From the IMG/VR virus record IMGVR_UViG_3300031972_002446, positions 32,001-96,000 of that record: a stretch of DNA of 64,000 nucleotides, one strand, 5' to 3'. This DNA comes from a virus. The notes beneath the pieces are model-generated. The model did no database searches, was not told the origin of the DNA, and saw nothing but the letters and a program-made list of their open reading frames with translations. Shown here piece after piece: positions 619 to 59,189 of this stretch (positions are counted from its first letter, which is position 1; each line of letters starts with the position of its first letter). The position numbers and the translations under genes are program-made.

Positions 619-1456
619 ATGAAATGTATTTTTGTATGGACAAACTATCTTTTAAGAAATCTTCTTTGTTGATAAAATTATCTTCAATTTGCATATTGTC
701 TTTAGATTGTTTTAATGTTGTTCTTAATTTTCTATGATTTGTTTCTAACTTTATACCGATTGTTTCATACAATAGTTTATATAGTTCGTCGGTACTCTGG
801 TTAACTATATCTTCATAAGATAGCCAAATTTTAGGTTTTGTGCATTGTTTATATATCTCCAAGTATTCTTTCAATATATTCTTATGTGTTTCAGCATAAG
901 ATATGAAATATTCTTTATTCCATAAAATTTTAACTTCTTGATTATTATTTAATATTGTTGGATTCTTTTTTAACGTATTTCTATTGACATTCCACAAGCC
1001 TGTTTTATGTGCTTTATTTAAACTAATAAACTGTGCTAAAACATCTTTTCTATTTAAAAATATAACAAAGTCTACCATTTCTATTATTTTATTAATTTCT
1101 TTGCTCTGACCATATAATAACTTCATGCACACATATTCGTATTTATCTGCTAACTCATCCAGTTTTACAGATAAGTGCCTATGATTTATCACACCTATAT
1201 CTAAATAGGCGGGATTGTATTGCATACTAGATACATTTTCTAGAAAATCCTTATATAGATATAATTTTTCTATTTTATTTTGTTTTATATATTTTTTTAT
1301 ATCTTCTAAGTGTTTATCTATATGGAATTTAGATCTATTAAAAAACTCAGCCAGATTATAAACATTTGATAATCCATTGCATAATTGTGTGAGTAAAAAT
1401 GAACTACCGCTTCGCATACTTGCTAATATTAGTATTTTTTTTGGTTTAGAAATCAT
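611..1456 (-). CDS. Sulfotransferase (Stf0/P-loop type)
   Basis: N-terminal ASMRSGSSFL PAPS-binding loop; LNRKDVLAQFIS 3'-phosphate motif; LSYEDI. Confidence 0.75.
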   Translation of the reverse strand: MISKPKKILILASMRSGSSFLLTQLCNGLSNVYNLAEFFNRSKFHIDKHLEDIKKYIKQNKIEKLYLYKDFLENVSSMQYNPAYLDIGVINHRHLSVKLDELADKYEYVCMKLLYGQSKEINKIIEMVDFVIFLNRKDVLAQFISLNKAHKTGLWNVNRNTLKKNPTILNNNQEVKILWNKEYFISYAETHKNILKEYLEIYKQCTKPKIWLSYEDIVNQSTDELYKLLYETIGIKLETNHRKLRTTLKQSKDNMQIEDNFINKEDFLKDSLSIQKYISYE

Positions 1457-2033
1457 ATTTAAAAAAATTTATCTCCTCTTTGTATCTATTTAGAACAATA
1501 TTCTTTGTTTCTTCAGTATAGTACTCTCGGTAATTTTTATGATCTGATTGATGAACATGCGGGAGGTTAGTAATATCTTCTTTAATATTAAGTTTATCAC
1601 AAACATATTGGATATCTTCTTTAAGATTTTCAAAACTTATAAAAGCATTCATTATATTTTGCTTACATTGATAATGTTTATACAAATTTTCTATTGGAAA
1701 CTTACTATTTACAAAATCATAAAAAGTAGAATCACTATCTATTGTATTTCTTTTTTTCATCCAAAAAAATTTAGAAACCATTCTGTCCCAAGTATTTCTA
1801 ATATTAGCAAATTTGAAATATGATTCCCATTGCTCTTCAGTCACATAAGGTTTAACGTGACAGGGTTTCATATGGTTCCAAAATGTTGTGCCTTCAGGGA
1901 TTGGGGGGTTTCCTCTCCATCCTACTATATCTATATTTTTATCACAAAATTGTTCAAAAAACATTTCTGTGGATGTTCCAGCAGTTTTACCAATTTTAAA
2001 ATATATGAATTTTTTGGTATGCGATATGATCAT
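1446..2033 (-). CDS. Sulfotransferase family 2 protein
   Basis: KTAGTS, RNTWDRMVS, FENLKED and YREYY motifs. Confidence 0.85.
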   Translation of the reverse strand: MIISHTKKFIYFKIGKTAGTSTEMFFEQFCDKNIDIVGWRGNPPIPEGTTFWNHMKPCHVKPYVTEEQWESYFKFANIRNTWDRMVSKFFWMKKRNTIDSDSTFYDFVNSKFPIENLYKHYQCKQNIMNAFISFENLKEDIQYVCDKLNIKEDITNLPHVHQSDHKNYREYYTEETKNIVLNRYKEEINFFKYDF

Positions 2034-4462: not shown

Positions 4463-5216
4463 TCACTTTTTCCCTATAGACTCTCATTTCTGAGTTACAT
4501 ATAGCATCATTTACACCATTAATATTATCAACATAATGATAGTATGAAGTATTATACCGTATAGAATTATTTGTATTGTAAACATAAATTGGTTTATCAA
4601 TATATTTAGGTCTGCTGTTTTCTTGTTCTAAAACATAAAACATTTCAGCCATATCTGTTCCTACTTGTATCCATTGATTATCTATTTGTAAATAATGGGA
4701 TGGATTTATACTATTGATTAATTGACTCTTCATAGTTCTTAAATGAGATGCCGAGTTTGACATAGTATTTCTATAAGATTTTTGACGATGAACAATATTA
4801 CGAAAATCTTTTCTAGGTCTAGACATATTAGTACCCGTGCTGAGATACGAACCATAAGTGCAATTATATCCAGCATCATATTCAGTGTTTAAAATATTTA
4901 AAACACTATCTCCGTACAACCAATCATCTCCATCTAGCATACAGCATATTTCATCATCATTAGTATTCATATACCCTTGATATCTTGATCCTGCTGGCCC
5001 TATTTTTTTTGGGTTTTGTAGATAAGTAAATTTTTTAGTTAAGCCTAAATTTTTCACATAGTCTTTTACTAATTTCAATGTATTATCAGTAGAGTGATCA
5101 TCTATATATATTACTCTCCAATTATCGTATTTTTGTTTTGCTATTGACTTAATATTGTACTCATACCAATCTTTATTGTTATAAGAAGGTATAATAAACA
5201 CAAAATTAAAACCCAT
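4437..5216 (-). CDS. Glycosyltransferase family 2
   Basis: IIPSYN, IDDHSTD and LDGDD (DxD) motifs. Confidence 0.9.
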   Translation of the reverse strand: MGFNFVFIIPSYNNKDWYEYNIKSIAKQKYDNWRVIYIDDHSTDNTLKLVKDYVKNLGLTKKFTYLQNPKKIGPAGSRYQGYMNTNDDEICCMLDGDDWLYGDSVLNILNTEYDAGYNCTYGSYLSTGTNMSRPRKDFRNIVHRQKSYRNTMSNSASHLRTMKSQLINSINPSHYLQIDNQWIQVGTDMAEMFYVLEQENSRPKYIDKPIYVYNTNNSIRYNTSYYHYVDNINGVNDAICNSEMRVYREKVNDFIKNAR

Positions 5217-5823
5217 AATTAAAAGCCTTTATGTCTTTTTTGAACAGATTAAAAACGTGTTCTTTAGTTTCTTTATCATAATATGTTGAGTAGTGTTGAT
5301 GCTTAGTACTATTACAATTATCTAGTTGTATTGAGGTTATATTCATATGCTTACAAACTTTATTGAAATCATTTTGTAAATTTTCAAACTTTCCTACAAA
5401 ATCTACTGCTAAATCACCATTCACAGTTAAACAGTCATATTGTGTAGATGCTTGCCACATAATAGGTTCTCGTTTTTTATCATTCATCAACCATTCTCTA
5501 AAAGGAGTGTCGATTGTTTCTTCATGTCCCTCCCTCTGTCTGTAAAAATAATGAGAAACACATAAATCCCAAGGATTTCTAACAAAAGAGAATTTAAATA
5601 ACTTATCCCAAATAGAATTTATTTCTGGACAATCAGCAAGTATTTCTGCTGAATTATGTTTATACCTAAAGTTTGGTCTTTTTTTGATTTTAACTGTACT
5701 AGATACAACATGCGGATATAAATACTCTCGTAATGCTTTTTCTATACTGGTTGTTCCTGTTTTTTGTATTGCTATAAACAATATAGCATATGTTTTACTT
5801 AGGATCATATCCGAACCTTTCAA
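5206..5823 (-). CDS. Sulfotransferase family 2 protein
   Basis: KTGTTS, FVRNPWD, VGKFENL and YSTYY motifs. Confidence 0.85.
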   Translation of the reverse strand: MKGSDMILSKTYAILFIAIQKTGTTSIEKALREYLYPHVVSSTVKIKKRPNFRYKHNSAEILADCPEINSIWDKLFKFSFVRNPWDLCVSHYFYRQREGHEETIDTPFREWLMNDKKREPIMWQASTQYDCLTVNGDLAVDFVGKFENLQNDFNKVCKHMNITSIQLDNCNSTKHQHYSTYYDKETKEHVFNLFKKDIKAFNYGF

Positions 5824-6531: not shown

Positions 6532-6534
6532 AAG

Positions 6535-6873
6535 TGGAGGCGAGGGGAGTCGAACCCCTGTCCAGTATAAATTCCATATAAACTTCTACATCGTTAGTCT
6601 GTTGTTATTAATACTACAGACAAAACTGTTTGTCTTTCCAACGGCAAAGTGATTACACTTATCTTTATATTTAATTCAGGTATAATTCCCTATCCGATTA
6701 TCGGAGTCAACATAATTGGGTAAAAAGGTTTATGTAACCCCTCCCACCTAAGCGGCGAGTGCTAATACAGAAGTATCGGCAATTAAAATGTGATCTATTT
6801 TTAAACTGGCCTTTAGATCAACCAGTCGATGCAATCTATACTTCTATTTATCTGTCGATACCAGTACGCCCCC
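6535..6873 (-). ncRNA. ssrA: tmRNA, tag peptide (A)ADTSVLALAA
   Basis: 5' GGGGGCG pairs with 3' CGCCTCC-A giving a G3:U alanine identity pair; T-arm AGGGG-TTCGACT-CCCCT; tag ORF 6780-6748 ends in LAA-stop; CCA not encoded. Confidence 0.95.
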
Positions 6874-18111: not shown

Positions 18112-18906
18112 CTATTCGTCTTTTGTCAACTGGCAACTTGAATTTTTTTTATAATTTAAAGTTGACTCAAAATTTTCACATTGACCAATTAAGTCGGTTA
18201 TAGGCGTATATATATTTAGTCTCGGATGAATGTAATATTTATATACTTGGTCTATATGGCTTAGTCTTTTAAGACCTTGATCTTTTTTGATCGCACCACT
18301 CTCCATATTATTTATATGGTCTATTAGCGTTTGAACCACATCTTTAATAATTTTTGGATTCATAATATATGCATGTGTTTGTAATTGCCACTCCGGTTTA
18401 TAAATATAATTATCAACTAATTTAGTTTCGGAGATTAATTTTGCATTTTGGCTTTCTTTATTAAAATAAACAGGCTTATCAAAATATATCATATCCCAAT
18501 TCAGAGACAAATTGTTTTTCAGTATATAATCTATATACTTATTTACTTCGTCAATATCATAAATTTCGGCATCGTCTTCTAAAATTAAGCACAGTTCATC
18601 TATATCTGTAATACTTTTAAGAATCTCTAAATGAGTTAAAAATAAAGATTTGATATTCGTATTATAAAAGTTTGTAAAATGATTACATTTTATAGAATTA
18701 ATAATTTGATATTTTAATTTAAATTTCTCAAATTGTTTTTTTTGAAAATATAACCTATCAATAAGTTTAGGATGGTTTATTAAAAATATTTTATCCACAG
18801 AAGTTTTATTTGGTGCTTCGTGGATGTCCTTTTGGTAGTAAGTCATTGTCTTGCTTATAGCCAGAATTTGATGGCCTTCCCGTTCTGAGTATTGTAAGAA
18901 AAGCAT
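18112..18906 (-). CDS. Glycosyltransferase family 25-like
   Basis: IFLIN...DR, LILEDDA, WDMIY, THAYI and HID motifs; real start probably downstream, given the overlap with 18806-19252. Confidence 0.8.
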   Translation of the reverse strand: MLFLQYSEREGHQILAISKTMTYYQKDIHEAPNKTSVDKIFLINHPKLIDRLYFQKKQFEKFKLKYQIINSIKCNHFTNFYNTNIKSLFLTHLEILKSITDIDELCLILEDDAEIYDIDEVNKYIDYILKNNLSLNWDMIYFDKPVYFNKESQNAKLISETKLVDNYIYKPEWQLQTHAYIMNPKIIKDVVQTLIDHINNMESGAIKKDQGLKRLSHIDQVYKYYIHPRLNIYTPITDLIGQCENFESTLNYKKNSSCQLTKDE

Positions 18907-19275: not shown

Positions 19276-19662
19276 TTATACACCATTTTTTTTACCTTTT
19301 AAATCTGCTATATTTTGTGCAATATCTACTAGCCTATCCCAATTTGCATCAATATATTCTTTTGGCCCACCCATATCAGCCTGTGCCTGTGCTATTTCTT
19401 CGGTAGGAACCATCTCGATAGCATCCCAAGGACAGACTTTAAGATCATATTTCTTACCTTTACCGCCGGGAACATGAATACATTGTTCGCAACCTATACA
19501 AGTAGACAAATCAATCTCACACCATTGAGTTACTCCCTGTTTTATCTGGAATATACAATCAACAGGACATACTTCTAAACAAGCCTCACAACCAGTACAA
19601 TTATCTGCTTGAATTATTGCTAATTCTTTAGGAATCTTTTTTCTTGGTTTTTTGTTTGCCAT
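19276..19662 (-). CDS. 2x[4Fe-4S] ferredoxin
   Basis: CTGCEACLEVCP and CIGCEQC...CP; TAATG overlap with DUF1501. Confidence 0.92.
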   Translation of the reverse strand: MANKKPRKKIPKELAIIQADNCTGCEACLEVCPVDCIFQIKQGVTQWCEIDLSTCIGCEQCIHVPGGKGKKYDLKVCPWDAIEMVPTEEIAQAQADMGGPKEYIDANWDRLVDIAQNIADLKGKKNGV

Positions 19663-20957
19663 TATGCTATAATATCGTGTTGAATGTTACCAAATACATC
19701 AGTTAGTCTAAAGTCTCTACCACTATATCTATATGTTAATTTACTATGGTCAATACCCATTAGATGTAATATAGTAGCATGTAAATCATGCATGTCCATA
19801 CCATCCACTGCTTTATGCCCAAAATCATCAGTAGAACCATATCTCATACCACCTTTAACACCACCACCTGCCATCCACATAGAAAATCCACTATTATTAT
19901 GATCTCTACCTGTTGCTCCTTCTTTTATACCGGGAGTTCTGCCAAACTCACTTCCAAATAATATAATTGTATCTTCAAATAATCCAGAATCTTTTAAGTC
20001 TTGGATCAAAGCAGCGATAGGTTTATCAATAGCAGAAGTATTCTTTTTTAAATTATCATTAATGTTCTGGTGCATATCCCATCCACCATGACCAATCTCT
20101 ACGAATCTAACTCCTGCTTCACTAAATTTCTTTGCTAATAAACACTGTTTGCCAAATTTAGCAGTGGCTTTATCATTGATACCATACTTCTGTAAGGTTT
20201 GTTGCGATTCTTTTGATATATCAATAGTATTAGGAACACTTGTCTGCATCCTAAAAGCCAACTCATAACTCTCAATCAATCCTTCTAGTCTACCATTTTC
20301 TGCACCATCTTTTAGGTGCATCTGGTTAAAGTCTCTTAATAAATCTAAATCTTTTCTTTGTCTGTCTTTAGTTGTAGATGTATTTACAAGATTAGGTATA
20401 GCACTTTTACTACCAGCATTAATAGCAGTGCCTTGATATACTGCTGGTAAGAATGAACTACCATAATTATCAGGCCCAATGTTAGCATCTATAGTTATAA
20501 ACCCCGGCAACTCTTTATTCTCTGTGCCTAATCCATACAATAACCAACTACCCATACTAGGTCTACTGAATTGAAAATTCCCGGTATGTAATAAACTTCT
20601 TGCTTGATTATGATTACCTGTTTTACTCTTCATACCATTCAACAGACATAAATCATCTGCATGTTTACGCAAGTGTGGGAAGTTCTCGCTAATTTCTATG
20701 CCGCTATCTCCTGCTGGAGTTAAAGGCACTCCCGGTTTCATAATCTTTCTACCTTTACTTACAGGATCATCTATACCTGCTTTTTCTACCATTAAAGGCT
20801 TATGATCAAAAGTATCAGTATGAGTCATACCACCATTCATATACATGAATATAACTCTCTTATTACTTTTCATAGCCTCTTCTGCCATTAATCCTTTTAA
20901 TGCTAACATACCGAAACCAAAACTACTGGCTTGTAATAAACTTCTTCTATTTAACAT
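19662..20957 (-). CDS. DUF1501 protein (Tat-exported, alkaline phosphatase/sulfatase-like)
   Basis: NRRSLL twin-arginine leader; VIFMYMNGGMTHTDTFDHKP, RPSMGSW, YELAFRMQ, GWDMH, SEFGRTP, GRDH and DLHATILHL motifs. Confidence 0.93.
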   Translation of the reverse strand: MLNRRSLLQASSFGFGMLALKGLMAEEAMKSNKRVIFMYMNGGMTHTDTFDHKPLMVEKAGIDDPVSKGRKIMKPGVPLTPAGDSGIEISENFPHLRKHADDLCLLNGMKSKTGNHNQARSLLHTGNFQFSRPSMGSWLLYGLGTENKELPGFITIDANIGPDNYGSSFLPAVYQGTAINAGSKSAIPNLVNTSTTKDRQRKDLDLLRDFNQMHLKDGAENGRLEGLIESYELAFRMQTSVPNTIDISKESQQTLQKYGINDKATAKFGKQCLLAKKFSEAGVRFVEIGHGGWDMHQNINDNLKKNTSAIDKPIAALIQDLKDSGLFEDTIILFGSEFGRTPGIKEGATGRDHNNSGFSMWMAGGGVKGGMRYGSTDDFGHKAVDGMDMHDLHATILHLMGIDHSKLTYRYSGRDFRLTDVFGNIQHDIIA

Positions 20958-20959
20958 AT

Positions 20960-21583
20960 TTACTCTCCGAATTTATAGTTTAATAATTCTATATCTTGTT
21001 CATATTTGTCTTTAACTATTTGTTGAGTTTCCTCATTATAATATTCTTGATATGGTCTGTGTTTGGATTTGTGCATTGTTTTAAATTTCTTACGTTTGGG
21101 CATACCTATTGCATCACACACAAAACCAAGATCATTTGCAAAATTTTCAAAACGACCTACAAAATCTATTTGATCAATAGGATACAATTCTGTTTGTAAC
21201 CTATAATGTCTATCGCATGTCTTAGTCTTTACATTTCTTATATAATGTATAAACTTATCAAATGTTTTAAAGTTATTCTTATTGAAGTTCTCATAACCAT
21301 CCTCCATTTTATTAAAATAACAACTAACTAATCTATCCCAAGGGTTTCTAACAAAAGCAAATTTAAAATAATTATCAGAATACATTCGGTTTTTCCATAG
21401 CAGATATTCCTGCCAAACATTTTCATCGTTCTGATATATATTAATTCTATTACAAAAACTTATTTTAGTATGTTGGCATAAGTGGGAAAGAATCGTTGTT
21501 GTTGCTGCTTTCGCAACCCTGAACCACAAATATTTATTTTTTTGTGATGAAGTTATCATAAATTTTGTTTTAATATACTTCAT
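20960..21583 (-). CDS. Sulfotransferase family 2 protein
   Basis: KAATTT, FVRNPWDRLVS, HYRLQ, VGRFENF and YQEYY motifs. Confidence 0.88.
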   Translation of the reverse strand: MKYIKTKFMITSSQKNKYLWFRVAKAATTTILSHLCQHTKISFCNRINIYQNDENVWQEYLLWKNRMYSDNYFKFAFVRNPWDRLVSCYFNKMEDGYENFNKNNFKTFDKFIHYIRNVKTKTCDRHYRLQTELYPIDQIDFVGRFENFANDLGFVCDAIGMPKRKKFKTMHKSKHRPYQEYYNEETQQIVKDKYEQDIELLNYKFGE

Positions 21584-23952
21584 TTAATATTTCTAAATTC
21601 TCCTGTACAGATTATTATTTGAATAAGTTTGGCAAGATCGCTATCTTGTTTAATAAACTCTATAGATTTTTTATTCTCTTGCTCTGTCGGTGGACGACCT
21701 AAAAACTTTAGAAATATTTTATTTATGTTGTTGCGATATAATATACTGGGCATGGTTTTACCCATCTTTTTATTATGTTCAATCAATACTTTGGCTTCTT
21801 CTTGTGCCAATGCTATAATCTTAGGATTATTCATTAGAAATAACGCTTGTGTAGAAACTGTCGTAACGCTTCTCTCTGCATTAAGCAAACTATTATCTGG
21901 TCTATCAAATATATCCAGCACCTCAATCTTATTATCTCTTAACGATGGAATATAAATTGATCTTGCTCTTGTTTCTCCAATATACTTTCTTAATTCTTTA
22001 CTAGGATTTTTTATACCTGTTTGAAAATCACTTACATTTTTATGCGACCCGTCTAGTTTACCTGATACAAATAATAATGAATCCCTAATTTGTTCAGCCT
22101 CTAATCTTTTCTCATTCATTCTCCAGAAATAAATATTGTCAGGATCAATCTCATAATTATTTTTATCAAACTTACTACTACGCCTATAAGCATTGCTCAT
22201 TACAATAGTTTTTATAAGTCTTTTATTTGATAGTCTACCAGTAATAAATTTAGTGGATAAATAGTTCATAAGTTTAAGATTAGTAGGCTCTCCACCAAGT
22301 ATACCAAAATTATCAAAACTATCCAGTATACCTTTACCAAACAAATGTCTCCATACCCTATTAACATGAACCCTATAAGTTAATGGATTAGTTTTATGCG
22401 TTATCCATTCCGCAAACTCATATCGTCCACTGGTATTATCAAAATTAAGATTAGGTCTATCGCTAAATATTTCTGGTAATCTTCTAGGTACTTCATCACC
22501 CAGATTATTTACCTCTCCTCTGATCGCTAACTTAACCTCGCTCATTTTTTCTTTATCTTTAACAGACATAACCGGCTCAAGATATTCTAGCGTAGGAAAT
22601 TCTTCCTTGCCAGTAATCTCTTTTAGTTTATTCATCTTTTCTGTTAGTTGTTTTTCTCTTTTTCCTAATTCTTTATCTAATTGTTGTTCTGTTGCTCTTT
22701 TATTCCATGTTTTAATAGAATCTATTTGTGTCTGTAAATTTTTAATATCACATAATAAAAACCATTCCTCTATTTTTTTCTTCTTATATAAATCTTCTGT
22801 TTCTTTTGTCACAAGATAATCATAGTTTCCAAGATATCCAGTATTATTATTTCCCCGATACAAACCATCCATATTTTCTGTATTATTAAACACCCCAGCA
22901 ACACCATAATAGTCTTGCTGAGAAAATGGATCAAACTTATGATCATGGCATCTAGCACAACTTAAAGTCATACCTAGAAAACCCCTAGTGATTACATCTA
23001 TCTGATCGTCATTACGATCTGCCTCAAACTGTTTGGTTTGTGCCTGTATATTTTTAGTACCTATAGTTAAAAATCCTGTAGCGATCCTGTTATTGTTATA
23101 TTCTTCATAACTTTTATGTGGTAGTAGATCACCAGCGATTTGTTCTTTGATAAATTGATCGTATGGTTTGTCTTGATTAAAACTATCTATAACATAATCT
23201 CTATATCTCCAAGCATAAGGACTAATTAAATTCCTATCTTGCCCAGATGATTCTGCGTACCTTGCCACATCAAGCCAGTGTCGTCCCCATTTCTCTCCAA
23301 ACCCCTCATCTTGCAATAAACTATCAACTAACTTTTCATACTTATCTTCTGAAGTATCATCAGTATAGCCTTTTATTTGTTCAATACTTGGTGGCAAACC
23401 AATCAGGTCAAAATAAAGTCTGCGAACAATAGTATAATCGTCTGCTGCCTCTACTGGTTTTAGTTTGTTCTTTTCTATTTCTAAATTTAATATAGCATCT
23501 ATCTCTGTACCATCATCGTATTTGGCTACAGGAGGTCTCGCAACCTTTTTAAATGCCCAGAAATTTCTAGCCTGCTTTAATTCTACTGCCCTATTCTCAT
23601 GCTTATATCTTGGGTCAGGCATACCCATTTTAATCCATTGTCTAAAATTATTGACAACTTCTTCGCTGAGAGGATTATCTGGAGGCATATCACCAGACTC
23701 AATATAATCTAATAACAAACTCTCATCTGTCTTACCGGGAACAACTGATGGGCCAGAATCACCACCGTTTAATATGCCTTGCCTAGTATCTACAGACAAT
23801 CCACCCTTTACATCTTTAGAATTGGAAGAGTGACAAGAATAACATTGAGTGGTCAAAACTGGCTTAATATTTTGTTCAAAAAACTTTATACCGTTGTCTT
23901 GGGCAAATAATGATCCAGATAATAACACAAAGATAATACAGGACGACCTCAT
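21580..23952 (-). CDS. Planctomycete cytochrome c (PSCyt1)-DUF1549-DUF1553 protein
   Basis: Signal peptide; CYSCH heme motif with MPP; RRLYFDLIGLPP, WLDVARYAES, CARCHDHKFDP, NPLT.RV.VNRVW, RLEAEQIRD and QALFLMN motifs. Confidence 0.95.
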   Translation of the reverse strand: MRSSCIIFVLLSGSLFAQDNGIKFFEQNIKPVLTTQCYSCHSSNSKDVKGGLSVDTRQGILNGGDSGPSVVPGKTDESLLLDYIESGDMPPDNPLSEEVVNNFRQWIKMGMPDPRYKHENRAVELKQARNFWAFKKVARPPVAKYDDGTEIDAILNLEIEKNKLKPVEAADDYTIVRRLYFDLIGLPPSIEQIKGYTDDTSEDKYEKLVDSLLQDEGFGEKWGRHWLDVARYAESSGQDRNLISPYAWRYRDYVIDSFNQDKPYDQFIKEQIAGDLLPHKSYEEYNNNRIATGFLTIGTKNIQAQTKQFEADRNDDQIDVITRGFLGMTLSCARCHDHKFDPFSQQDYYGVAGVFNNTENMDGLYRGNNNTGYLGNYDYLVTKETEDLYKKKKIEEWFLLCDIKNLQTQIDSIKTWNKRATEQQLDKELGKREKQLTEKMNKLKEITGKEEFPTLEYLEPVMSVKDKEKMSEVKLAIRGEVNNLGDEVPRRLPEIFSDRPNLNFDNTSGRYEFAEWITHKTNPLTYRVHVNRVWRHLFGKGILDSFDNFGILGGEPTNLKLMNYLSTKFITGRLSNKRLIKTIVMSNAYRRSSKFDKNNYEIDPDNIYFWRMNEKRLEAEQIRDSLLFVSGKLDGSHKNVSDFQTGIKNPSKELRKYIGETRARSIYIPSLRDNKIEVLDIFDRPDNSLLNAERSVTTVSTQALFLMNNPKIIALAQEEAKVLIEHNKKMGKTMPSILYRNNINKIFLKFLGRPPTEQENKKSIEFIKQDSDLAKLIQIIICTGEFRNIK

Positions 23953-23977
23953 GTGTGATACCTCCTAAATTGGTATA

Positions 23978-23989
23978 TTGAAATACACC
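23978..23989 (-). promoter_or_regulatory. GGTGTA-type putative late/middle promoter upstream of the DUF1549/DUF1553 operon
   Basis: GGTGTAtttcAATA 32 bp before the ATG; the same core precedes about 14 genes including virion genes. Confidence 0.6.
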
Positions 23990-24086: not shown

Positions 24087-24275
24087 CTAGTTAATGCATT
24101 TGTCATTTAATTTAATAATTGTCCAGTACTTACTGCCACAATGATTATCCACCCATTCTTCTGCCATGTATTTTTCTTCAAAAGGCCCGAATATTCTATC
24201 ATCTCTATCACCAATACGAAAATTTTTTAATTCAATAGCGTATTTACTCATGTTGCTAGTAACAACAATATACAT
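24087..24275 (-). CDS. Hypothetical protein
   Basis: FGPF..K..AEEW motif typical of small phage proteins. Confidence 0.55.
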   Translation of the reverse strand: MYIVVTSNMSKYAIELKNFRIGDRDDRIFGPFEEKYMAEEWVDNHCGSKYWTIIKLNDKCIN

Positions 24276-24917: not shown

Positions 24918-25745
24918 TTAATTATTCGTATAGTATTTTAATATGTCGTCAATACCTTTTTTTATAGTGATTTGAGGATGCCAGAAGTTCATTATGTATT
25001 CATCTGGAGGATTTAGTTTATTAAATTGTACTTCATCTGTTTGCGTGTCCTTTACTATATCACAATTTGTTTTATTGCTAATCAGTTTAGCAATATCTAT
25101 TATTTTCACCCATTCAAAACTAGTTATATGATAGGGCTTAGTCTTGTCTAGACTATGAAACTGTTCAGCCAGTATACTTAAACAATTACTACAATCATCT
25201 GCGTGTAAAAACTGCCTAGATTCCTCACCATCTGTTAACATATCAATAACGCCATTATTAATTGCTTTTAATATAAAGTCTGTTATTACATGGAATTTGT
25301 TTGCATCTTTTTCTATTCCGTAAACATTCCAAAACTTAACAACTAAACCACCCAATAATTTTGTATAAATTTCCCCTATGTTTTTTAATGCGCCATAGGT
25401 CGATTGTTCCATGTTGGACATTTGAGAGGAAGCAAATATAAAAGGTTTCGCATGTCTTCCTATAAGACTCATAGTATTTTCTATGATTCTCATATTATTG
25501 GAAACAAATTTTGGATCATTTTGATATTCTTTTAAATATCTTGAACCACCAACATCAAACGCTAAAAAATATATAAAATCACTTTTACATATGTAGTCTT
25601 CTAAGATTGTATTATTTGGTATTCGTAAATCATGGTTGTGAGTAATACTAATATCAAATTCTAAAACTTTTTCTTGTTTGTTTTTTAAGAAAGAAGTTAG
25701 ATGGTTGCCTATTTGACCAGATGATCCTATAATTAAACTTGTCAT
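24918..25745 (-). CDS. NAD-dependent nucleotide-sugar epimerase/dehydratase
   Basis: GSSGQIG, ASS, YGALK, NVYG and RQFLHADD motifs. Confidence 0.9.
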   Translation of the reverse strand: MTSLIIGSSGQIGNHLTSFLKNKQEKVLEFDISITHNHDLRIPNNTILEDYICKSDFIYFLAFDVGGSRYLKEYQNDPKFVSNNMRIIENTMSLIGRHAKPFIFASSQMSNMEQSTYGALKNIGEIYTKLLGGLVVKFWNVYGIEKDANKFHVITDFILKAINNGVIDMLTDGEESRQFLHADDCSNCLSILAEQFHSLDKTKPYHITSFEWVKIIDIAKLISNKTNCDIVKDTQTDEVQFNKLNPPDEYIMNFWHPQITIKKGIDDILKYYTNN

Positions 25746-26587
25746 TATGCTACATACCTTATATGTTTATCTATCATGGTATAAGGACTATTAGAGTATA
25801 AAGCACTAAAGAATCCTAAATTACTATTAACCAATAATTTATGATGACATTTACTCATCAGCAAAGCCTCTAAAACAGCCGCTTCACCTTTATCATAATT
25901 ATTGTTATTAAAAAGCCAAGTAGTATCAATATTATTTTTATCCGATATATATGGATGATCATAGAATATAATACTATTACCGAAATATTTTCTAATATAA
26001 TCTCTGGGTTCTTTATCATTAGACATTACATAAACTTTATCGTAATCGTCTATGTAAGATTTAATAGTTTTAACATAGTATTCGTTGTCCATCAAATATT
26101 GTTGATGTCTACCATGTCCTCTGTTATTATTGGCGTAATGTTCCCCATTTCTAATATGTATACCAATTACTTTGTATTGACTGAATAATGTTTGATGTAA
26201 AATATCTAATTTGTGTTGTATATGAGGCTGGATTTTAATATATTTGTCAATTATTGTCTTGGCAAAATGTATAACATCTTGATCTTTATCTAAAACATAT
26301 CTACCATTTTTTACAGTGAACATTAGGTTATTGACGAAATTTTGATTAACTATAATATCGGAGGTTGTCTCGGAAGATATATCTACATCTAAAAAAGGTT
26401 GTTGAAAATAATATTCCCAAACATTGTTGGTTTTATTATAATTAGTGTCGTAATAAGGCGTGGTATTAATTAAAGAAATATATAAAGCATCTTCTGAATT
26501 TTTTAAATATTTAAAAGCATCTACGACAGTCCAAAAATATGCAAACAAACCTCTGGAAGCAAAATTATCTTTATAAATATAAATCAT
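25745..26587 (-). CDS. NodZ/O-fucosyltransferase-like GT-B protein
   Basis: RGLFA, NVWEYYFQQP, IGIHIR and EALLMSKC..L..SN motifs. Confidence 0.75.
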   Translation of the reverse strand: MIYIYKDNFASRGLFAYFWTVVDAFKYLKNSEDALYISLINTTPYYDTNYNKTNNVWEYYFQQPFLDVDISSETTSDIIVNQNFVNNLMFTVKNGRYVLDKDQDVIHFAKTIIDKYIKIQPHIQHKLDILHQTLFSQYKVIGIHIRNGEHYANNNRGHGRHQQYLMDNEYYVKTIKSYIDDYDKVYVMSNDKEPRDYIRKYFGNSIIFYDHPYISDKNNIDTTWLFNNNNYDKGEAAVLEALLMSKCHHKLLVNSNLGFFSALYSNSPYTMIDKHIRYVA

Positions 26588-27310
26588 TTATCTATCAGAT
26601 TGTACTGTTCCATCGTTGTTTAGTCTATCGTGCAAATAACACAATCTATTAATTTTACTTCTATCAATATTGTTTTGTTTTAAATGCTCTAAAAGCCTTA
26701 ACTCTGAGTTACCATTACCAATGTTGTCTTTTAAAATACTTAAATACTTTTCACAATATATTTTAATTGTTTCTATTGGGCCAATAGCAAACCTGTCATA
26801 CACACCTCCTAAATAATCTTTAATATTAGTTTTATTATGACATAGAGGAATATTTAACGTGTCTTTATTTATTTTATCAATCGGAAAATTTTCCCACGGT
26901 ATATGATCACATCTTAATCTACATACTAAATCATATTTAATATTATTAATTTTAACATACTCTTGAAATAATTGAAAACAGCGATAAACACCATACCATT
27001 GTAGTATATAATGTTCCATTCTGTTTTTTAAAATATATTCGTTTTTTTCTATCTTGGGTTTGCTAAAAGTTATGCCATTTTTGTGACTTATATCTTTAGT
27101 TTCTGAATTTTTCATAGAGTCTTTTTCAAAACATAAGACGTTTGGTTTTAATTTTTGAAGAGAGGATACGTTTATTTCGGTTAAATCCTCATCAGGTATG
27201 TAGAAATATGTATCAAATCCATCAAACTGTGAAAAAAGTTTGTTGTGTATTTCTGGTAGTGCATATGCAAAGCCTCTCATTTGACCACTAAACAAAAAAG
27301 CACAGTTCAT
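26588..27310 (-). CDS. Glycan-modifying protein (SGQ.R / R.R.D / DRFA family)
   Basis: AFLFSGQMRG, YDLVCRLRCD, DRFAIG and SE..L..HL motifs found in polysaccharide loci. Confidence 0.65.
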   Translation of the reverse strand: MNCAFLFSGQMRGFAYALPEIHNKLFSQFDGFDTYFYIPDEDLTEINVSSLQKLKPNVLCFEKDSMKNSETKDISHKNGITFSKPKIEKNEYILKNRMEHYILQWYGVYRCFQLFQEYVKINNIKYDLVCRLRCDHIPWENFPIDKINKDTLNIPLCHNKTNIKDYLGGVYDRFAIGPIETIKIYCEKYLSILKDNIGNGNSELRLLEHLKQNNIDRSKINRLCYLHDRLNNDGTVQSDR

Positions 27311-27939
27311 TATATCTTCCTTAATATAGTTAAACCATGACTAATTGGTAATGTACTATATTCGTAAGAATCTCCATATATCTCCATAAATTTCAATAAA
27401 CCACCGTAAACACCATTACCTCCAAATTCATGGTTGGGAGGATAATTGTTTCGGTTGTATTCCGGTTGATTATTAGTATGCATAGTATCGTGTAGCAAAA
27501 CTAAAGATTTATTATTAATAATTTGATCTATTAAACATAATTCTTTAAATACATGATCTGAACTGTGCCAGTCATCTACAAGTACGATATCGTAAATATC
27601 TTTATTTTCAACTGATTCTTCTAAAAATTTTAAACTATCTTTTTGATGAAAAATCCAATAAAGTAATAAGTTATTAGGTAAACGCCCTCCAATATGACGA
27701 AATTGAGGGATATTTTTATCTACAGAGCATACCTCGCCATCAGTAATTTCTGCACCAAGCACTAGGGGTAATGTACTACCACCATCTCTACAGCCTAGTT
27801 CAAGAATATTTTTGGCTTTTAAACCAGTAACTAAGGATATAAATATTGGGCCTAATGCTGGAGTTTCATTGTTTCTGGGGTTAATTTCTTGGGTAATTTT
27901 AAACGTGTTGTGGATATGCCACATCGCATCAAAATCCAT
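27310..27939 (-). CDS. Class I SAM methyltransferase (Methyltransf_24-like)
   Basis: ILELGCRDGGST, SVD, DS, LVDDWH and LLHDT motifs. Confidence 0.85.
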   Translation of the reverse strand: MDFDAMWHIHNTFKITQEINPRNNETPALGPIFISLVTGLKAKNILELGCRDGGSTLPLVLGAEITDGEVCSVDKNIPQFRHIGGRLPNNLLLYWIFHQKDSLKFLEESVENKDIYDIVLVDDWHSSDHVFKELCLIDQIINNKSLVLLHDTMHTNNQPEYNRNNYPPNHEFGGNGVYGGLLKFMEIYGDSYEYSTLPISHGLTILRKI

Positions 27940-35795: not shown

Positions 35796-35806
35796 CGCTT
35801 GTCAAG

Positions 35807-35879
35807 TACCCCCAGTAGGACTCGAACCTACAACATACGGTTTAAAAGACCGCTACTCTACCGATTGAGTTATAGGGGC
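35807..35879 (-). tRNA. tRNA-Lys (UUU)
   Basis: Cloverleaf; anticodon arm GCGGT-CTTTTAA-ACCGT; T-loop TTCGAGT; no encoded CCA. Confidence 0.95.
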
Positions 35880-35883
35880 TGAG

Positions 35884-35959
35884 TAGGACGGGCAGGAGTC
35901 GAACCTACCTATGAACACCTTATAAGAGTGTCGGATGCAACCGGCTTACCTTCCGTCCC
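35884..35959 (-). tRNA. tRNA-Ile (UAU)
   Basis: GGGACGG/CCGTCCT acceptor; ACACT-CTTATAA-GGTGT anticodon arm; T-loop TTCGACT; A73. Confidence 0.88.
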
Positions 35960-36117
35960 TTATGAGTATTCTGTTATTGCTCTTCTCCGAATATCCATCC
36001 GGGTGCGAACTCTACGAGGCCGGTTATCATGATTACCAGAGCCAGAACGATGAATGTTGTGTCCACGAGACATCTCCCAAGATTTTTTAGTTGAAACTTT
36101 TACTGATCCATACTTAC

Positions 36118-36444
36118 TCATAGTTTATCCCTTAATAAGTCTTGAAGAAATTCTTTAGCAACATTATCAGGATCTTCTTCTACATTCACATCACACTCAT
36201 CTAATGCACCATCGAAAGAGTCTCTGTATGCTACTCCTAAATCCTCTAAGATATAATCGTCTCGTTCGTTTTCTTCTAATTCTAAATATTCTGTTCCATT
36301 GATAATATGTTTATGTGATTCATTTTCAATATAATCACCAATCCATTGGAATCTAATACTTTCAGGATCAGCCTCAACCCAACCATTAAATGTTATAATA
36401 ATTTTTTTATTACTCATTAGTAAGTTTCTCCACAAGTAAATCAC
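36118..36444 (-). CDS. Acidic hypothetical protein
   Basis: Likely start MSNKK after GGAG. Confidence 0.6.
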   Translation of the reverse strand: MIYLWRNLLMSNKKIIITFNGWVEADPESIRFQWIGDYIENESHKHIINGTEYLELEENERDDYILEDLGVAYRDSFDGALDECDVNVEEDPDNVAKEFLQDLLRDKL

Positions 36445-36854
36445 AAATCATATCAATAGTAGAAGCATCACTACGACCATCAAGAATAGCCCTAATGTCT
36501 TCCTGCATTTGTTCACACAACTCGTTCATCATCTTGTCCAATCTCTAAAGAACTCTACCCTAACTCCAACATTCATTCTACCATTATCGGGCTGACCCGT
36601 CAAGTCTATAGTTTTATTACAGGTAAGTGAACATTTGCTAGTAGTTACACATCCTGTACAACAAATTAAGAGTGAGACCAAACATAGTCGATATACCATT
36701 CCACCACCTCCTTAAGAGTAATATCGTCATCCTCAAGGATTTTCTTTACCTTATTTGTTTCGGCCTCATTCATCACACTTAGCCTCTGGTTCAGGTAGTC
36801 TAAAATTGTTGTTATTTGTTCTTTTTTATCCAAAATTTTCTCCAAATAAGTTAA

Positions 36855-36926
36855 TAGCCCCGGCGAGAATCGAACTCACATTTGAGGTTTAGAAGACCAC
36901 TGTTCTATCCGTTGAACTACGGGGCC
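36855..36926 (-). tRNA. tRNA-Arg (UCU)
   Basis: GGCCCCG/CGGGGCT acceptor; anticodon loop CTTCTAA; T-loop TTCGATT. Confidence 0.93.
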
Positions 36927-36990
36927 AATAATAAAAGCCAGAGCCGCAGTCTTGGTTATCCCCATTGACGCTGCGGCCCTGACCCTCTTA

Positions 36991-57201: not shown

Positions 57202-57457
57202 ATTTTATGATAATCAATATAAACAATGGATAAAGAAAATTTTTGCTAGAGACAGGCATAGCTGTCAGTGGCCTGGTTGTTCTAGCAGGAGAAAGCTTAA
57301 TGCCCACCATATCAAAAAATGGTCAGATTATCCAGGATTAAGATTCCATTTAGATAATGGTATTACTTTATGTAAACAGCATCATGATCTTATTAAAGAT
57401 AATGAAGAAAATTATGAAATGTTTTTCTTTAAGATAATAGGAGAGCATAAAAAATGA
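57194..57457 (+). CDS. HNH endonuclease (packaging-associated type)
   Basis: RDRHSCQWPGC, AHHI and NGITLCKQHH. Confidence 0.9.
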   Translation: MRRFYDNQYKQWIKKIFARDRHSCQWPGCSSRRKLNAHHIKKWSDYPGLRFHLDNGITLCKQHHDLIKDNEENYEMFFFKIIGEHKK

Positions 57458-58056
57458 TTATTTTACATGAACACAGGTTATGTTTCTTAGAAAAACCAAA
57501 GTGCGGTAGCAGATCTTTAGTTAGGGCTATCACTAGACCCTTACATAAACGCTGGAAGAAAGAAGATATTTTTGTTAGTAATAAAAATTTACATAACTTA
57601 AATTTCGACTATCACCATCCTAACTATTTACATGTTAATCTTCATGGAGCTATTACATATATTCAAGAAGTTAAAAAGCAAAATATTCAAGAATATACAT
57701 TTATATGTTTATTAAGAAATCCTATAGATTTATTTATTAGTTTATATTGTTATGATATGAATAGGCAGAATAATAGATATCATAAGTTTTCTTGTGTTGA
57801 AGATATGAGGAATACTATACATTATAAGATGTTTACAGACAATATATTTTTACATATGAGGGATTTTGTTAATATAAAATTCTTTTCTTTACATAATACT
57901 GACTCTCTTATAGATTATTTATTTATGAAGCATAGAATTCCTATAAGGTTTCCTACTATTAATGTTAATCAAAATAAAAAGGAGTTAGATATTTCAGACT
58001 TGAAAGATCAAATTTTACAGGATTTCCCCATATATAATACTTTGTATGGTCAATAA
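57454..58056 (+). CDS. Sulfotransferase family 2-like protein
   Basis: PKCGSRS and LRNPIDLFISLY. Confidence 0.75.
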   Translation: MIILHEHRLCFLEKPKCGSRSLVRAITRPLHKRWKKEDIFVSNKNLHNLNFDYHHPNYLHVNLHGAITYIQEVKKQNIQEYTFICLLRNPIDLFISLYCYDMNRQNNRYHKFSCVEDMRNTIHYKMFTDNIFLHMRDFVNIKFFSLHNTDSLIDYLFMKHRIPIRFPTINVNQNKKELDISDLKDQILQDFPIYNTLYGQ

Positions 58057-58729: not shown

Positions 58730-59189
58730 TGAGAAAAAATATAGTTTTAATGTTATTATAGACACCAGAGAACAGAAGCCTTGGGCTTTTGCTGGTTGTG
58801 AAACTATTAATAAAAAATTAGATACTGGAGATTATTCCATTGAAGGCTTAGAGAATCTATTATGTATAGAAAGAAAAAATAGCGTTAGCGAAATAGCTAA
58901 TAATATATCAGAAGCTAGATTTAAAGCTGAAATACTTAGAATGCAAGATTACTTATATAAGTTTATATTGCTAGAGTTTAGTTTACAAGATATTTTAAAT
59001 TATCCCAAAGGATCATCAGTACCTAGACATATGTGGAATAAAATTAAAATAAGACCTGCTTTTATCTTAAAGTATATCACAGAACTTCAAACTAAACATA
59101 ATATCAATGTAGTATTTTGTGACAACCCTCAGGCCGCTAACCAAATGGCCTTTTCAATTATTAAGAGAGTGAATGAATCTCATGGATAA
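58719..59189 (+). CDS. ERCC4-domain nuclease
   Basis: IDTREQKP, GDYS and IERK motifs. Confidence 0.9.
   Translation: MTSNEKKYSFNVIIDTREQKPWAFAGCETINKKLDTGDYSIEGLENLLCIERKNSVSEIANNISEARFKAEILRMQDYLYKFILLEFSLQDILNYPKGSSVPRHMWNKIKIRPAFILKYITELQTKHNINVVFCDNPQAANQMAFSIIKRVNESHG

What the first reader, a model, noticed from the sequence alone, without database searches (positions are those of the whole stretch)
19276..23989. Phage-borne PSCyt1-DUF1549-DUF1553 / sulfotransferase / DUF1501 / ferredoxin operon
Seen: four translationally coupled genes (ATGA overlap, 2-nt gap, TAATG overlap) behind a GGTGTA promoter. They are intact, with two CxxCH motifs and a Sec signal on the first and a twin-Arg signal on DUF1501, and they match the phage's low GC. 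Known: DUF1549/DUF1553 plus DUF1501 is a gene pair massively expanded in Planctomycetota and Verrucomicrobiota, of unknown function; DUF1501 has an alkaline phosphatase/sulfatase-like fold. I know of no description of it in a phage. Inference: a long-retained auxiliary system, probably a heme/metal periplasmic complex linked to sulfate or glycan chemistry, used late in infection. A compact single-copy viral version would be a tractable model for this unexplained family.
Basis: partly seen in the sequence, partly recalled or inferred. Interest (0 to 1): 0.88.

Follow-up and report, generated by a model that had tools for sequence, protein, structure and literature searches.

The report
Phage-borne PSCyt–DUF1501 exported enzyme pair
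A large uncultured marine phage, probably of planctomycete bacteria, carries a strongly conserved copy of its hosts' abundant but unexplained two-gene module (a haem-motif protein plus a phosphatase/sulfatase-fold enzyme), which models predict to form a complex. The sulfotransferase and ferredoxin beside it are later, separable additions.

Summary
Four intact, tightly packed minus-strand genes encode PSCyt1-PSCyt2-PSD1, Sulfotransfer_2, DUF1501 and a 2x[4Fe-4S] ferredoxin. They sit inside a 165,940-bp virus record.

It is not one four-gene system. The conserved unit is the PSCyt/DUF1501 pair.
- The two genes overlap directly in all related IMG/VR contigs that span the junction.
- Pairwise dN/dS is about 0.09-0.10.
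- All 15 viral DUF1501 sequences form one clade, at most about 53% identical to any cellular homologue.

The sulfotransferase is a cassette found only in this sub-lineage. It is inserted exactly at the junction, and five independent assemblies contain the same arrangement, so it is not a chimaera. The ferredoxin is missing from 6 of 18 related contigs and has diverged less at synonymous sites.

New here:
- A complex prediction scores 0.84 against 0.00 for the best control. It docks the PSD1 C-terminal domain onto the helical cap of DUF1501.
- DUF1501 has an alkaline-phosphatase-superfamily fold (NPP Z about 20) and lacks the formylglycine motif of sulfatases.
- A DUF1559 pilin-like gene elsewhere in the genome points to a planctomycete host.

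The chemistry is still inferred. This scan had already followed up the same pair in sister phages. I found no published description, and no match in GenBank phages.

The parts
23984..23989 (-). GGTGTA(T) upstream motif, a candidate phage promoter element, 37 nt before the PSCyt start
   Evidence: GGTGTAT is intergenic in 13 of 29 genome occurrences against 1.9 expected, and 11 lie 15-80 nt upstream of a same-strand start. It is conserved upstream of PSCyt in L002 and L004. Function not shown.
23961..23966 (-). AGGAGG ribosome-binding site, 8 nt before the PSCyt ATG
   Evidence: Read from the sequence.
21580..23952 (-). 790-aa exported haem-motif protein. Sec-type leader; PSCyt1 cytochrome c domain (about 20-115; CYSCH 37-41; invariant M89-P90); PSCyt2/DUF1549 (150-359; CARCH 332-336); coiled hairpin; PSD1/DUF1553 (510-766 and C-terminus).
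   Evidence: Pfam; alignment invariants. In the AF2 model, residues 20-114 align to c-type cytochromes (FoxE Z 6.3, rmsd 2.7, 86 aligned). dN/dS median 0.098.
20960..21583 (-). 207-aa (or 199-aa) Sulfotransfer_2 gene. A lineage-specific cassette inserted at the PSCyt/DUF1501 junction.
   Evidence: Pfam 1.7e-21; phrog_3347. Not between PSCyt and DUF1501 in any related IMG/VR contig spanning the junction. Flanked by an imperfect direct repeat AAATAT(G)TTAAAT. GC 0.276. The same arrangement occurs in 5 independent Logan assemblies.
19662..20957 (-). 431-aa Tat-signal DUF1501 enzyme with an alkaline-phosphatase-superfamily fold
   Evidence: Pfam 1.1e-133. AF2 pLDDT 91. NPP Z 19-20 and sulfatases Z about 18. 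Invariant D294, H296, E337, R351 and H353; no fGly motif. dN/dS median 0.09.
19276..19662 (-). 128-aa 2x[4Fe-4S] ferredoxin without a signal peptide. An optional neighbour of the pair.
   Evidence: Fer4 families. CxxCxxCxxxCP plus CxxCxxC...CP. Present in 12 of 18 related contigs. 93.6% identical to L013 where DUF1501 is 79% and PSCyt 72% identical.

Best explanation
The core is a two-gene auxiliary module that a family of large tailed phages, probably of Planctomycetota, captured once from bacteria of the PVC (Planctomycetes-Verrucomicrobia-Chlamydiae) group and has kept under strong selection. The long tape-measure gene suggests these are siphovirus-like phages.

Proposed mechanism in the infected cell:
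- The 790-aa protein is exported by Sec. It receives c-type haem at its N-terminal cytochrome c domain, and possibly at the second CxxCH motif.
- The 431-aa DUF1501 protein is exported folded by Tat.
- In the periplasm the two form a heterodimer. The C-terminal PSD1/DUF1553 domain, including the conserved TGEFR tail and the Q702/L704/N708 helix, clamps the helical cap (residues about 187-238) of DUF1501.
- DUF1501 is the catalytic subunit. It is a metal-dependent alkaline-phosphatase-superfamily esterase with conserved D294-x-H296, E337, R351-D-H353 and a Ser/Thr candidate nucleophile. It most likely cleaves a phospho- or sulfo-ester on an organic or envelope substrate.
- The haem protein supplies the scaffold and an electron-transfer or sensing function.
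- The likely benefit to the phage is nutrient (P or S) release or envelope remodelling during infection.

The sulfotransferase is an unrelated glycan-modification cassette, one of at least four or five in this genome. It landed in the junction, a known insertion slot, and kept translational coupling. The ferredoxin is a separate cytoplasmic auxiliary gene.

Shown: gene content, conservation, selection, viral monophyly, fold class, and the insertion.
Supported by a model only: the complex.
Inferred: haem loading, chemistry, benefit to the phage, and host.
For: Phage context:
- The record is a virus record of 165,940 bp with TerL, a 4205-aa tape measure, DnaE, RNR and ligase.

The pair in relatives:
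- It is conserved at 72-99% aa identity in about 18 IMG/VR contigs and more than 110 metagenomic protein clusters.
- PSCyt overlaps DUF1501 directly in every contig spanning the junction.

Selection and phylogeny:
- Median pairwise NG86 dN/dS is 0.09 for DUF1501 and 0.098 for PSCyt, against 0.066 for the neighbouring Ogg-like gene.
- The 15 viral DUF1501 sequences form one clade (SH-aLRT 100, stem 0.51). It sits inside a supported subfamily that holds Singulisphaera and Gemmata sequences.
- The nearest of 1.84 billion cluster representatives is 53% identical.

Complex prediction:
- ipSAE 0.84 against a best control of 0.00. In calibration this mark was reached by 58 of 80 solved complexes and 2 of 110 mismatched pairs.
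- The runs agree in at least 79% of contacts, and partner pLDDT is at least 86.
- No solved structure of either family exists by sequence, so the pass is unlikely to be recalled from a known complex.
- Interface residues include columns invariant or nearly invariant in both families.

Fold and motifs:
- NPP Z 19-20, PafA 18.9, sulfatases about 18.
- Conserved candidate metal ligands.
- A weak profile alignment places D294/H296 and E337 on the NPP metal-ligand motifs.
- The cytochrome c domain has a Pfam PSCyt1 hit and matches FoxE, PccH and YhjA.

Context in the sister clade:
- The pair is followed by a membrane-anchored WCxxC thioredoxin-fold protein. That architecture fits periplasmic thiol reduction.

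Host:
- The genome also encodes a DUF1559 protein with an N-terminal methylation motif (4.9e-39).
- That family gave at least 150 hits in the planctomycete genome and none in two Verrucomicrobiota genomes or 14 control genomes.
Against: - No biochemical function is known for any member of either family (PMC3542564, PMC5615132).
- The nucleophile could not be assigned; both S/T45 and S90 are conserved. The first metal-ligand position after strand 1 is not conserved.
- The haem regions of the PSCyt model have low confidence.
- The complex job split PSCyt into two chains and used my own alignments, so its calibration applies only roughly.
- No cellular homologue is closer than about 50-53%, and none better than E 1e-140 was found in 401 Verrucomicrobiota genomes. 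The donor is therefore unresolved.
- Phage GC of 0.33 is far below that of typical planctomycetes.
- Only 2 of 7 near-complete relatives carry any DUF1501, so the module is dispensable.
- Synonymous divergence of the pair against one complete relative (0.7-0.8) is well below that of TerL (1.8) and DUF5824 (saturated). This suggests exchange among phages rather than strict vertical retention.
Confidence: 0.6

Rival explanations
1. All four genes form one functional operon for periplasmic sulfate or glycan chemistry. DUF1501 would release sulfate, the sulfotransferase would use it through PAPS, and the ferredoxin would feed electrons.
For: - The genes are tightly packed with retained ribosome-binding sites.
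- The PSCyt-sulfotransferase-DUF1501 order is kept in a second variant at 88.5% nt identity.
- The genome carries several more sulfotransferases and glycan genes.
- In cellular genomes PSCyt genes often neighbour sulfatases (PMC5615132).
Against: - The sulfotransferase is not between PSCyt and DUF1501 in any related IMG/VR contig spanning the junction, including one whose DUF1501 is 99% identical.
- It has lower GC and flanking repeats typical of an insertion.
- In the sister clade the same slot holds an endonuclease VII/HNH-type gene.
- The ferredoxin is absent from 6 of 18 contigs, has no signal peptide and has a discordant divergence.
- DUF1501 lacks the fGly sulfatase motif.
Confidence: 0.1
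2. The ferredoxin is a Tat 'hitch-hiker' subunit. It would be exported bound to DUF1501, as DmsB-type FeS subunits are, and would wire DUF1501 to the haem protein.
For: - The Tat signal on DUF1501 lacks an obvious cofactor reason.
- The ferredoxin gene start overlaps the DUF1501 stop and has no signal of its own.
- The sister clade carries another redox protein (thioredoxin-fold) at the same position.
Against: - One third of related phages lack the ferredoxin.
- The cellular pairs seen here show no ferredoxin neighbour.
- Ferredoxin dS against L013 is 0.71, while PSCyt is 1.5 and DUF1501 is saturated. This indicates a separate history.
- Binding was not tested here.
Confidence: 0.08
3. The stretch is host DNA joined to phage DNA by misassembly, or a passenger gene decaying neutrally.
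For: The family is a hallmark of PVC bacteria, and no GenBank phage has it.
Against: - The same genes sit between the same phage genes in many independent assemblies, including complete records.
- Five Logan assemblies reproduce this window's exact junctions.
- GC matches the phage.
- dN/dS is about 0.09.
Confidence: 0.02
4. The pair acts without catalysis, for example as a periplasmic binding or blocking complex for superinfection exclusion or receptor masking.
For: - The phage carries other envelope-directed genes: a DUF1559 pilin-like protein, glycosyltransferases and sulfotransferases.
- No activity is known for the family.
Against: The candidate active-site residues D294, H296, E337, R351 and H353 are invariant across viral and cellular homologues, which fits retained catalysis.
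Confidence: 0.12

Closest known systems
The DUF1501 + PSCyt1/PSCyt2/PSD1 'conserved genetic module' of Planctomycetes, Verrucomicrobia and Lentisphaerae (Kamneva et al. 2012, PMC3542564; He et al. 2017, PMC5615132)
   Same: - It matches the simplest two-gene locus type described there: a PSCyt1-PSCyt2-PSD1 protein with a signal peptide beside a twin-arginine DUF1501.
- Both CxxCH motifs and all family-invariant residues are kept.
   Different: - It is carried by a phage, as a single copy against 25-54 copies per PVC genome.
- It is only about 50% (DUF1501) and about 40% (PSCyt) identical to the best cellular copies.
- The DUF1501 is shorter, 431 aa against about 475 aa.
- GC is 0.33.
- In this sub-lineage the pair is split by a sulfotransferase cassette.
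Nucleotide pyrophosphatase/phosphodiesterases and PafA-type alkaline phosphatases (alkaline phosphatase superfamily)
   Same: - This is the best structural match to the DUF1501 model: Z 19-20, rmsd about 3.2-3.3 over about 245 residues.
- Conserved D-x-H, an acidic residue and His sit where NPP has metal ligands.
   Different: - Sequence identity is 11-16%.
- The nucleophile motif did not align.
- The first Asp ligand position is not conserved.
- DUF1501 has a helical cap that the model uses to bind PSD1.
Formylglycine-dependent (S1) sulfatases
   Same: They share the superfamily fold: top Foldseek hits at E about 1e-7, and VIA Z about 18.
   Different: No C/S-x-P-x-R motif is present in the phage protein, and only 3 of 70 homologues have one.
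Phage auxiliary genes for exported nutrient-scavenging proteins (cyanophage pstS and phoA; from my own knowledge)
   Same: A host-derived gene for a periplasmic protein, kept under selection in a marine phage.
   Different: - The family here has no known function.
- It has two subunits with a haem protein.
- The host group is different.
- The nutrient link is only inferred.

Membership tests
PSCyt/PSD1 + DUF1501 module (Kamneva 2012) | One protein with PSCyt1, PSCyt2 (DUF1549) and PSD1 (DUF1553) domains in that order | tested here: met
   Pfam 1.2e-13, 2.4e-81 and 1.4e-71 at residues 37-92, 150-359 and 510-766.
PSCyt/PSD1 + DUF1501 module (Kamneva 2012) | CxxCH motifs in PSCyt1 and PSCyt2 | tested here: met
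   CYSCH 37-41 is nearly invariant. CARCH 332-336 is invariant across 15 viral and cellular sequences.
PSCyt/PSD1 + DUF1501 module (Kamneva 2012) | An adjacent co-directional DUF1501 gene with a twin-arginine leader | tested here: met
   DUF1501 scores 1.1e-133 and has an NRRSLL leader. It is adjacent and overlapping in all relatives. Here it is separated by a 624-nt inserted gene.
PSCyt/PSD1 + DUF1501 module (Kamneva 2012) | The two proteins act together | tested here: inconclusive
   The complex model scores 0.84 against a best control of 0.00. This is a prediction, not a measurement.
Formylglycine (S1) sulfatases | C/S-x-P-x-R formylglycine motif | tested here: not met
   None in the window protein; 3 of 70 homologues have one by chance-level match.
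Formylglycine (S1) sulfatases | Alkaline-phosphatase-superfamily core fold | tested here: met
   Foldseek E about 1e-7 and VIA Z about 18.
NPP / alkaline phosphatase two-metal esterases | Core fold | tested here: met
   Z 19-20 to ENPP3, Xac NPP and ENPP6; 18.9 to PafA.
NPP / alkaline phosphatase two-metal esterases | Thr/Ser nucleophile and the full set of Asp/His metal ligands | tested here: inconclusive
   D294, H296, E337 and H353 are invariant, and S/T45 (68 of 70) and S90 are conserved. The profile alignment covers only the central motifs, at E 0.037. The position after strand 1 is variable.
c-type cytochrome (PSCyt1 domain) | CxxCH plus a distal Met ligand in a cytochrome c fold | tested here: met
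   CYSCH; invariant M89-P90; the model aligns to FoxE (Z 6.3), PccH and YhjA. Haem attachment itself was not tested.
Phage auxiliary (host-derived) gene | Sits inside a phage genome between phage genes, in independent assemblies | tested here: met
Phage auxiliary (host-derived) gene | Purifying selection | tested here: met
   Median dN/dS 0.09-0.10.
Phage auxiliary (host-derived) gene | Expressed during infection | not testable with these tools
Sulfotransfer_2 (PF03567) | Family profile match | tested here: met
   1.7e-21 over profile positions 5-252; phrog_3347 at 2.8e-18. The KAATTT and RNPWDRLVS stretches resemble PAPS-binding motifs, judged from memory and not tested.
2x[4Fe-4S] ferredoxin | Two Cys clusters of the CxxCxxCxxxCP type | tested here: met
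   C22-C32P, and C55xxC58xxC61 with C77P after a 15-residue insert. Fer4 and Fer4_7 Pfam hits. Below every NCBIfam cut-off.

The most novel reading that the evidence does not exclude
The phage copy is a minimal, self-sufficient haem-coupled periplasmic esterase. The phage would deploy it in planctomycete cells to free phosphorus or sulfur from organic esters, or to strip an envelope glycan. The predicted PSD1-tail/DUF1501-cap docking would be the general assembly rule for the thousands of paralogous PSCyt-DUF1501 pairs in PVC bacteria. In this sub-lineage the inserted sulfotransferase would be functionally coupled to it.
Probability: 0.2. Interest if true: 0.8.

Novelty: new member of a known kind. 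Interest (0 to 1): 0.55.

Why it matters
DUF1501 and PSCyt/PSD1 proteins are among the most expanded gene families in Planctomycetota and Verrucomicrobiota. I counted 25-54 DUF1501 copies per genome here and more than 20,000 cluster representatives overall. Their function has been an open question since 2004-2012.

A phage keeping exactly one pair, under strong selection and stripped of extra domains, argues that the pair is a self-contained functional unit with a direct fitness effect. It also offers a compact construct for expression, haem and metal analysis, and structure work.

The high-scoring, control-separated complex model gives a concrete hypothesis that can be tested by mutation: the PSD1 C-terminus docks on the DUF1501 cap.

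The pair, together with the DUF1559 gene, also marks a widespread family of large aquatic phages as probable planctomycete viruses. To my knowledge, few phages of that host group are known.

Tried and rejected
- GenBank phages (INPHARED): tblastn with DUF1501, PSCyt and the ferredoxin gave no match. PHROGs has no family for these three.
- Literature: no paper holds both DUF1501 and DUF1553. The 12 papers with DUF1501 and the 6 with the Pfam accessions describe no phage copy. The one phage paper reports only a weak CDD hit on a 61-aa ORF.
- PDB by sequence: no solved relative of either protein.
- PSCyt fold: Foldseek gave nothing below E 0.1 for the whole model. The wide VIA search gave only weak matches: the cytochrome c domain at Z 6.3, and phycobilisome-linker-like at Z 6.7 for residues 617-790, which is below the level I would trust.
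- Donor search: pattern scanning of GTDB genomes found only relatives at 48% identity or less. 401 Verrucomicrobiota genomes held nothing better than E 1e-140. I did not sample Planctomycetota or other phyla at that depth.
- The exact 207-aa sulfotransferase is not on record. The 199-aa call is.
- The 182-aa gene in the sister clade's slot is unrelated to the sulfotransferase.
- Profile-profile alignment to NPPs was too weak to place the nucleophile.
- The sigma-70 consensus scan of the region found no more sites than in shuffles.
- I call the second viral clade 'freshwater' only from my recollection of the JGI sample numbers. I did not verify the habitat.

Full report
**What is there.**
On the minus strand lie four ORFs at 21580-23952 (790 aa), 20960-21583 (207 aa), 19662-20957 (431 aa) and 19276-19662 (128 aa). 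Pfam assigns them as follows:
- 790 aa: PSCyt1 (1.2e-13), PSCyt2/DUF1549 (2.4e-81) and PSD1/DUF1553 (1.4e-71).
- 207 aa: Sulfotransfer_2 (1.7e-21).
- 431 aa: DUF1501 (1.1e-133).
- 128 aa: 4Fe-4S ferredoxin families.

The 790-aa protein has a Sec-type leader and two CxxCH motifs, CYSCH 37-41 and CARCH 332-336. DUF1501 begins MLNRRSLL. The ferredoxin has two cluster motifs and no leader. The ATGA overlap depends on the first of two possible sulfotransferase starts; public gene calls use the second.

GGTGTA sits 37 nt before the first ATG. The hexamer alone is not enriched. GGTGTAT is seven-fold enriched in intergenic spacers and usually lies 15-80 nt before a gene. It recurs before PSCyt in two close relatives.

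**It is a phage.**
The window is part of a single 165,940-bp virus record with GC 0.329. The record holds a large terminase, a 4205-aa tape-measure-sized ORF, split DnaE, class II RNR, DNA ligase, HNH endonucleases, a tmRNA and three tRNAs. More than 595 IMG/VR stretches encode TerL relatives at 68-85% identity, so this is a large environmental phage family.

**The conserved unit is the pair.**
IMG/VR holds 18 contigs with DUF1501 at 79-99% identity and matching PSCyt genes, several of them 135-195 kb long. The big protein collection holds more than 110 clusters at 77-99% identity, some from Tara Oceans.

In every related contig that spans the junction, the PSCyt stop and the DUF1501 start overlap (...CGTAATGTTAAATAG...) with no gene between them. 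Downstream, the ferredoxin is present in 12 of 18 contigs. In the other six, other genes follow DUF1501 directly (DUF5824 in L005, L007 and L010).

A second, more distant viral clade has DUF1501 at 60-64% and PSCyt at 47-52% identity. It carries PSCyt, then sometimes an endonuclease VII/HNH-type gene, then DUF1501, then a membrane-anchored WCxxC thioredoxin-fold protein in place of the ferredoxin.

**Selection and history.**
- Pairwise Nei-Gojobori dN/dS medians are 0.09 (DUF1501), 0.098 (PSCyt), 0.057 (ferredoxin) and 0.066 (the neighbouring Ogg-like gene). Neutral decay is excluded.
- In a maximum-likelihood tree of 80 sequences, the 15 viral DUF1501 proteins form one clade (SH-aLRT 100, stem 0.51). 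It lies inside a supported subfamily that contains Singulisphaera and Gemmata proteins. This indicates one capture, before the two viral clades split.
- The closest of 1.84 billion cluster representatives is 53% identical. Three PVC genomes give 50-52% at best, with 25-54 copies each. PSCyt reaches 40-42%.
- Only 2 of 7 near-complete TerL relatives have any DUF1501. One of those carries a different type, 29% identical, beside a VWA protein and a trypsin-like protease.
- Against one complete relative, the pair's dS (0.7-0.8) is far below that of TerL (1.8) and DUF5824 (saturated).

So the module is accessory. It is old in the phage gene pool and probably exchanged among these phages.

**The sulfotransferase is an insertion.**
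- It occurs at this position only in this sub-lineage. A contig whose DUF1501 is 99% identical lacks it there.
- Its GC is 0.276 against 0.33-0.35 for the pair.
- It is bracketed by an imperfect direct repeat, AAATAT(G)TTAAAT. The insertion preserves both the PSCyt C-terminus and the DUF1501 start, and brings a GGAG before the latter.
- The genome has at least three more Sulfotransfer_2 genes at 24-32% identity. The family is a known phage moron type, phrog_3347.
- Five contigs assembled independently from five sequencing runs reproduce PSCyt-3'/sulfotransferase/DUF1501-5'. Four are 100% identical and one is 88.5% identical. The arrangement is therefore real and somewhat older than this genome.

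**The ferredoxin.**
It is 93.6% identical to the L013 copy, where DUF1501 is 79% and PSCyt 72% identical. Its dS is 0.71, against 1.5 for PSCyt and saturation for DUF1501. Together with its patchy presence, this points to a separate, more recent spread.

**Structure and mechanism.**
- DUF1501 folds with pLDDT 91.
- Foldseek's best hits are S1 sulfatases (E about 1e-7). Re-alignment ranks NPP-type phosphodiesterases first (Z 19-20, about 245 residues, rmsd 3.2-3.3), then PafA phosphatase (18.9) and sulfatases (about 18).
- There is no formylglycine motif.
- Invariant D294, H296, E337, R351 and H353 and a conserved S/T45 suggest a metal-dependent esterase. A weak profile alignment puts D294/H296 and E337 on NPP metal-ligand motifs.
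- The PSCyt model is mainly helical (pLDDT 72). Its residues 20-114 align with c-type cytochromes.
- The complex prediction used PSCyt2, PSD1 and mature DUF1501 as three chains. It gave ipSAE 0.84, 0.85 and 0.83, against 0.00 for all three controls. Contacts agreed in at least 79% of cases and partner pLDDT was at least 86. In calibration the mark was reached by 58 of 80 solved complexes and 2 of 110 mismatched pairs, and those counts apply only roughly to this set-up.
- The interface joins PSD1 residues 595-785 to DUF1501 residues 162-238. On the PSD1 side it includes the invariant Q702, L704 and N708 and residues 782-785 of the conserved C-terminal tail. On the DUF1501 side it includes the nearly invariant A234, M237 and Q238.
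- Neither family has a solved structure.

**Host.**
The same genome encodes a DUF1559 protein with a pilin-type N-terminal methylation motif (4.9e-39). That family gave at least 150 hits in the planctomycete genome and none in two Verrucomicrobiota genomes or 14 control genomes. With the tree placement, a planctomycete host is the best guess at about 0.6. The low GC and the lack of a close donor argue for caution.

**Comparison with what is known.**
The pair matches the simplest locus type of the PVC module described by Kamneva et al. (PMC3542564) and He et al. (PMC5615132). Both papers state that its function is unknown. I found no report of it in a phage and no copy in GenBank phages or PHROGs.

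Earlier follow-ups of this scan reached the same core reading on sister phage genomes. Added here are:
- proof that the sulfotransferase is an insertion;
- the docking model;
- the NPP-versus-sulfatase discrimination;
- the accessory and exchanged status of the module;
- the DUF1559 host test.

Noticed in passing
window 6532-6873 (-): The phage encodes a one-piece tmRNA (Rfam RF00023, 113 bits; tag ADTSVLALAA). It also carries tRNA-Lys(ttt), tRNA-Ile(tat) and tRNA-Arg(tct) at 35806-36927.
   Followed up: partly
genome 25084-26091 (-), = L048:7084-8091: A phage-encoded DUF1559/SBP_bac_10 protein with a type IV pilin-like N-terminal methylation motif (4.9e-39). The family gave at least 150 hits in a Singulisphaera genome and none in two Verrucomicrobiota genomes or 14 controls. 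This is a host marker and possibly a pilus-directed phage protein.
   Followed up: partly
window 1446-2033, 5206-5823, 57454-58056; genome 150001-150492: Three to four further Sulfotransfer_2-like genes lie in the same phage. With the epimerase, NodZ-like, CmcI-methyltransferase and GT genes at 24918-27939 and 18112-18906, they make an unusually large glycan-modification repertoire.
   Followed up: partly
L045:3516-4064 (+): In the sister viral clade the PSCyt/DUF1501 junction holds an endonuclease VII/HNH-type gene (phrog_1035). The junction is therefore a recurrent insertion slot in phages, as earlier scan notes report for cellular genomes.
   Followed up: partly
L045:5364-5807, L032:4182-4637: In the sister clade, membrane-anchored thioredoxin-fold proteins (WCGFC / WCKYC) directly follow DUF1501. 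The architecture resembles that of CcmG/ResA, which could serve cytochrome c maturation or disulfide handling.
   Followed up: partly
L145:5476-9410 (G410, 186,823-bp record with terminal repeats); also L019: Other members of the same phage family carry a different DUF1501 type (27-29% identical). In L145 it lies behind a 629-aa VWA-domain protein and before a secreted trypsin-like protease. This looks like an independent acquisition of the family.
   Followed up: partly
genome 105718-118335 (+): A 4205-aa ORF in the tail-gene block, presumably a tape measure, which implies an exceptionally long tail.
   Followed up: no
window 59173-61209 versus L079; 19662-23952 versus L010: Against the complete 159,659-bp relative, TerL is 72% identical (dS 1.8) while DUF1501 and PSCyt are 91% and 87% identical (dS 0.7-0.8). 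The auxiliary module seems to recombine among phages faster than the core genome diverges.
   Followed up: partly
window 24087-24275 (-): The small Cys-rich ORF just upstream of PSCyt (...CCGSGCRNCPY...) is conserved in most relatives. In some (L005-L007) its coding sequence contains the GGTGTATTAATTGTCC string.
   Followed up: no
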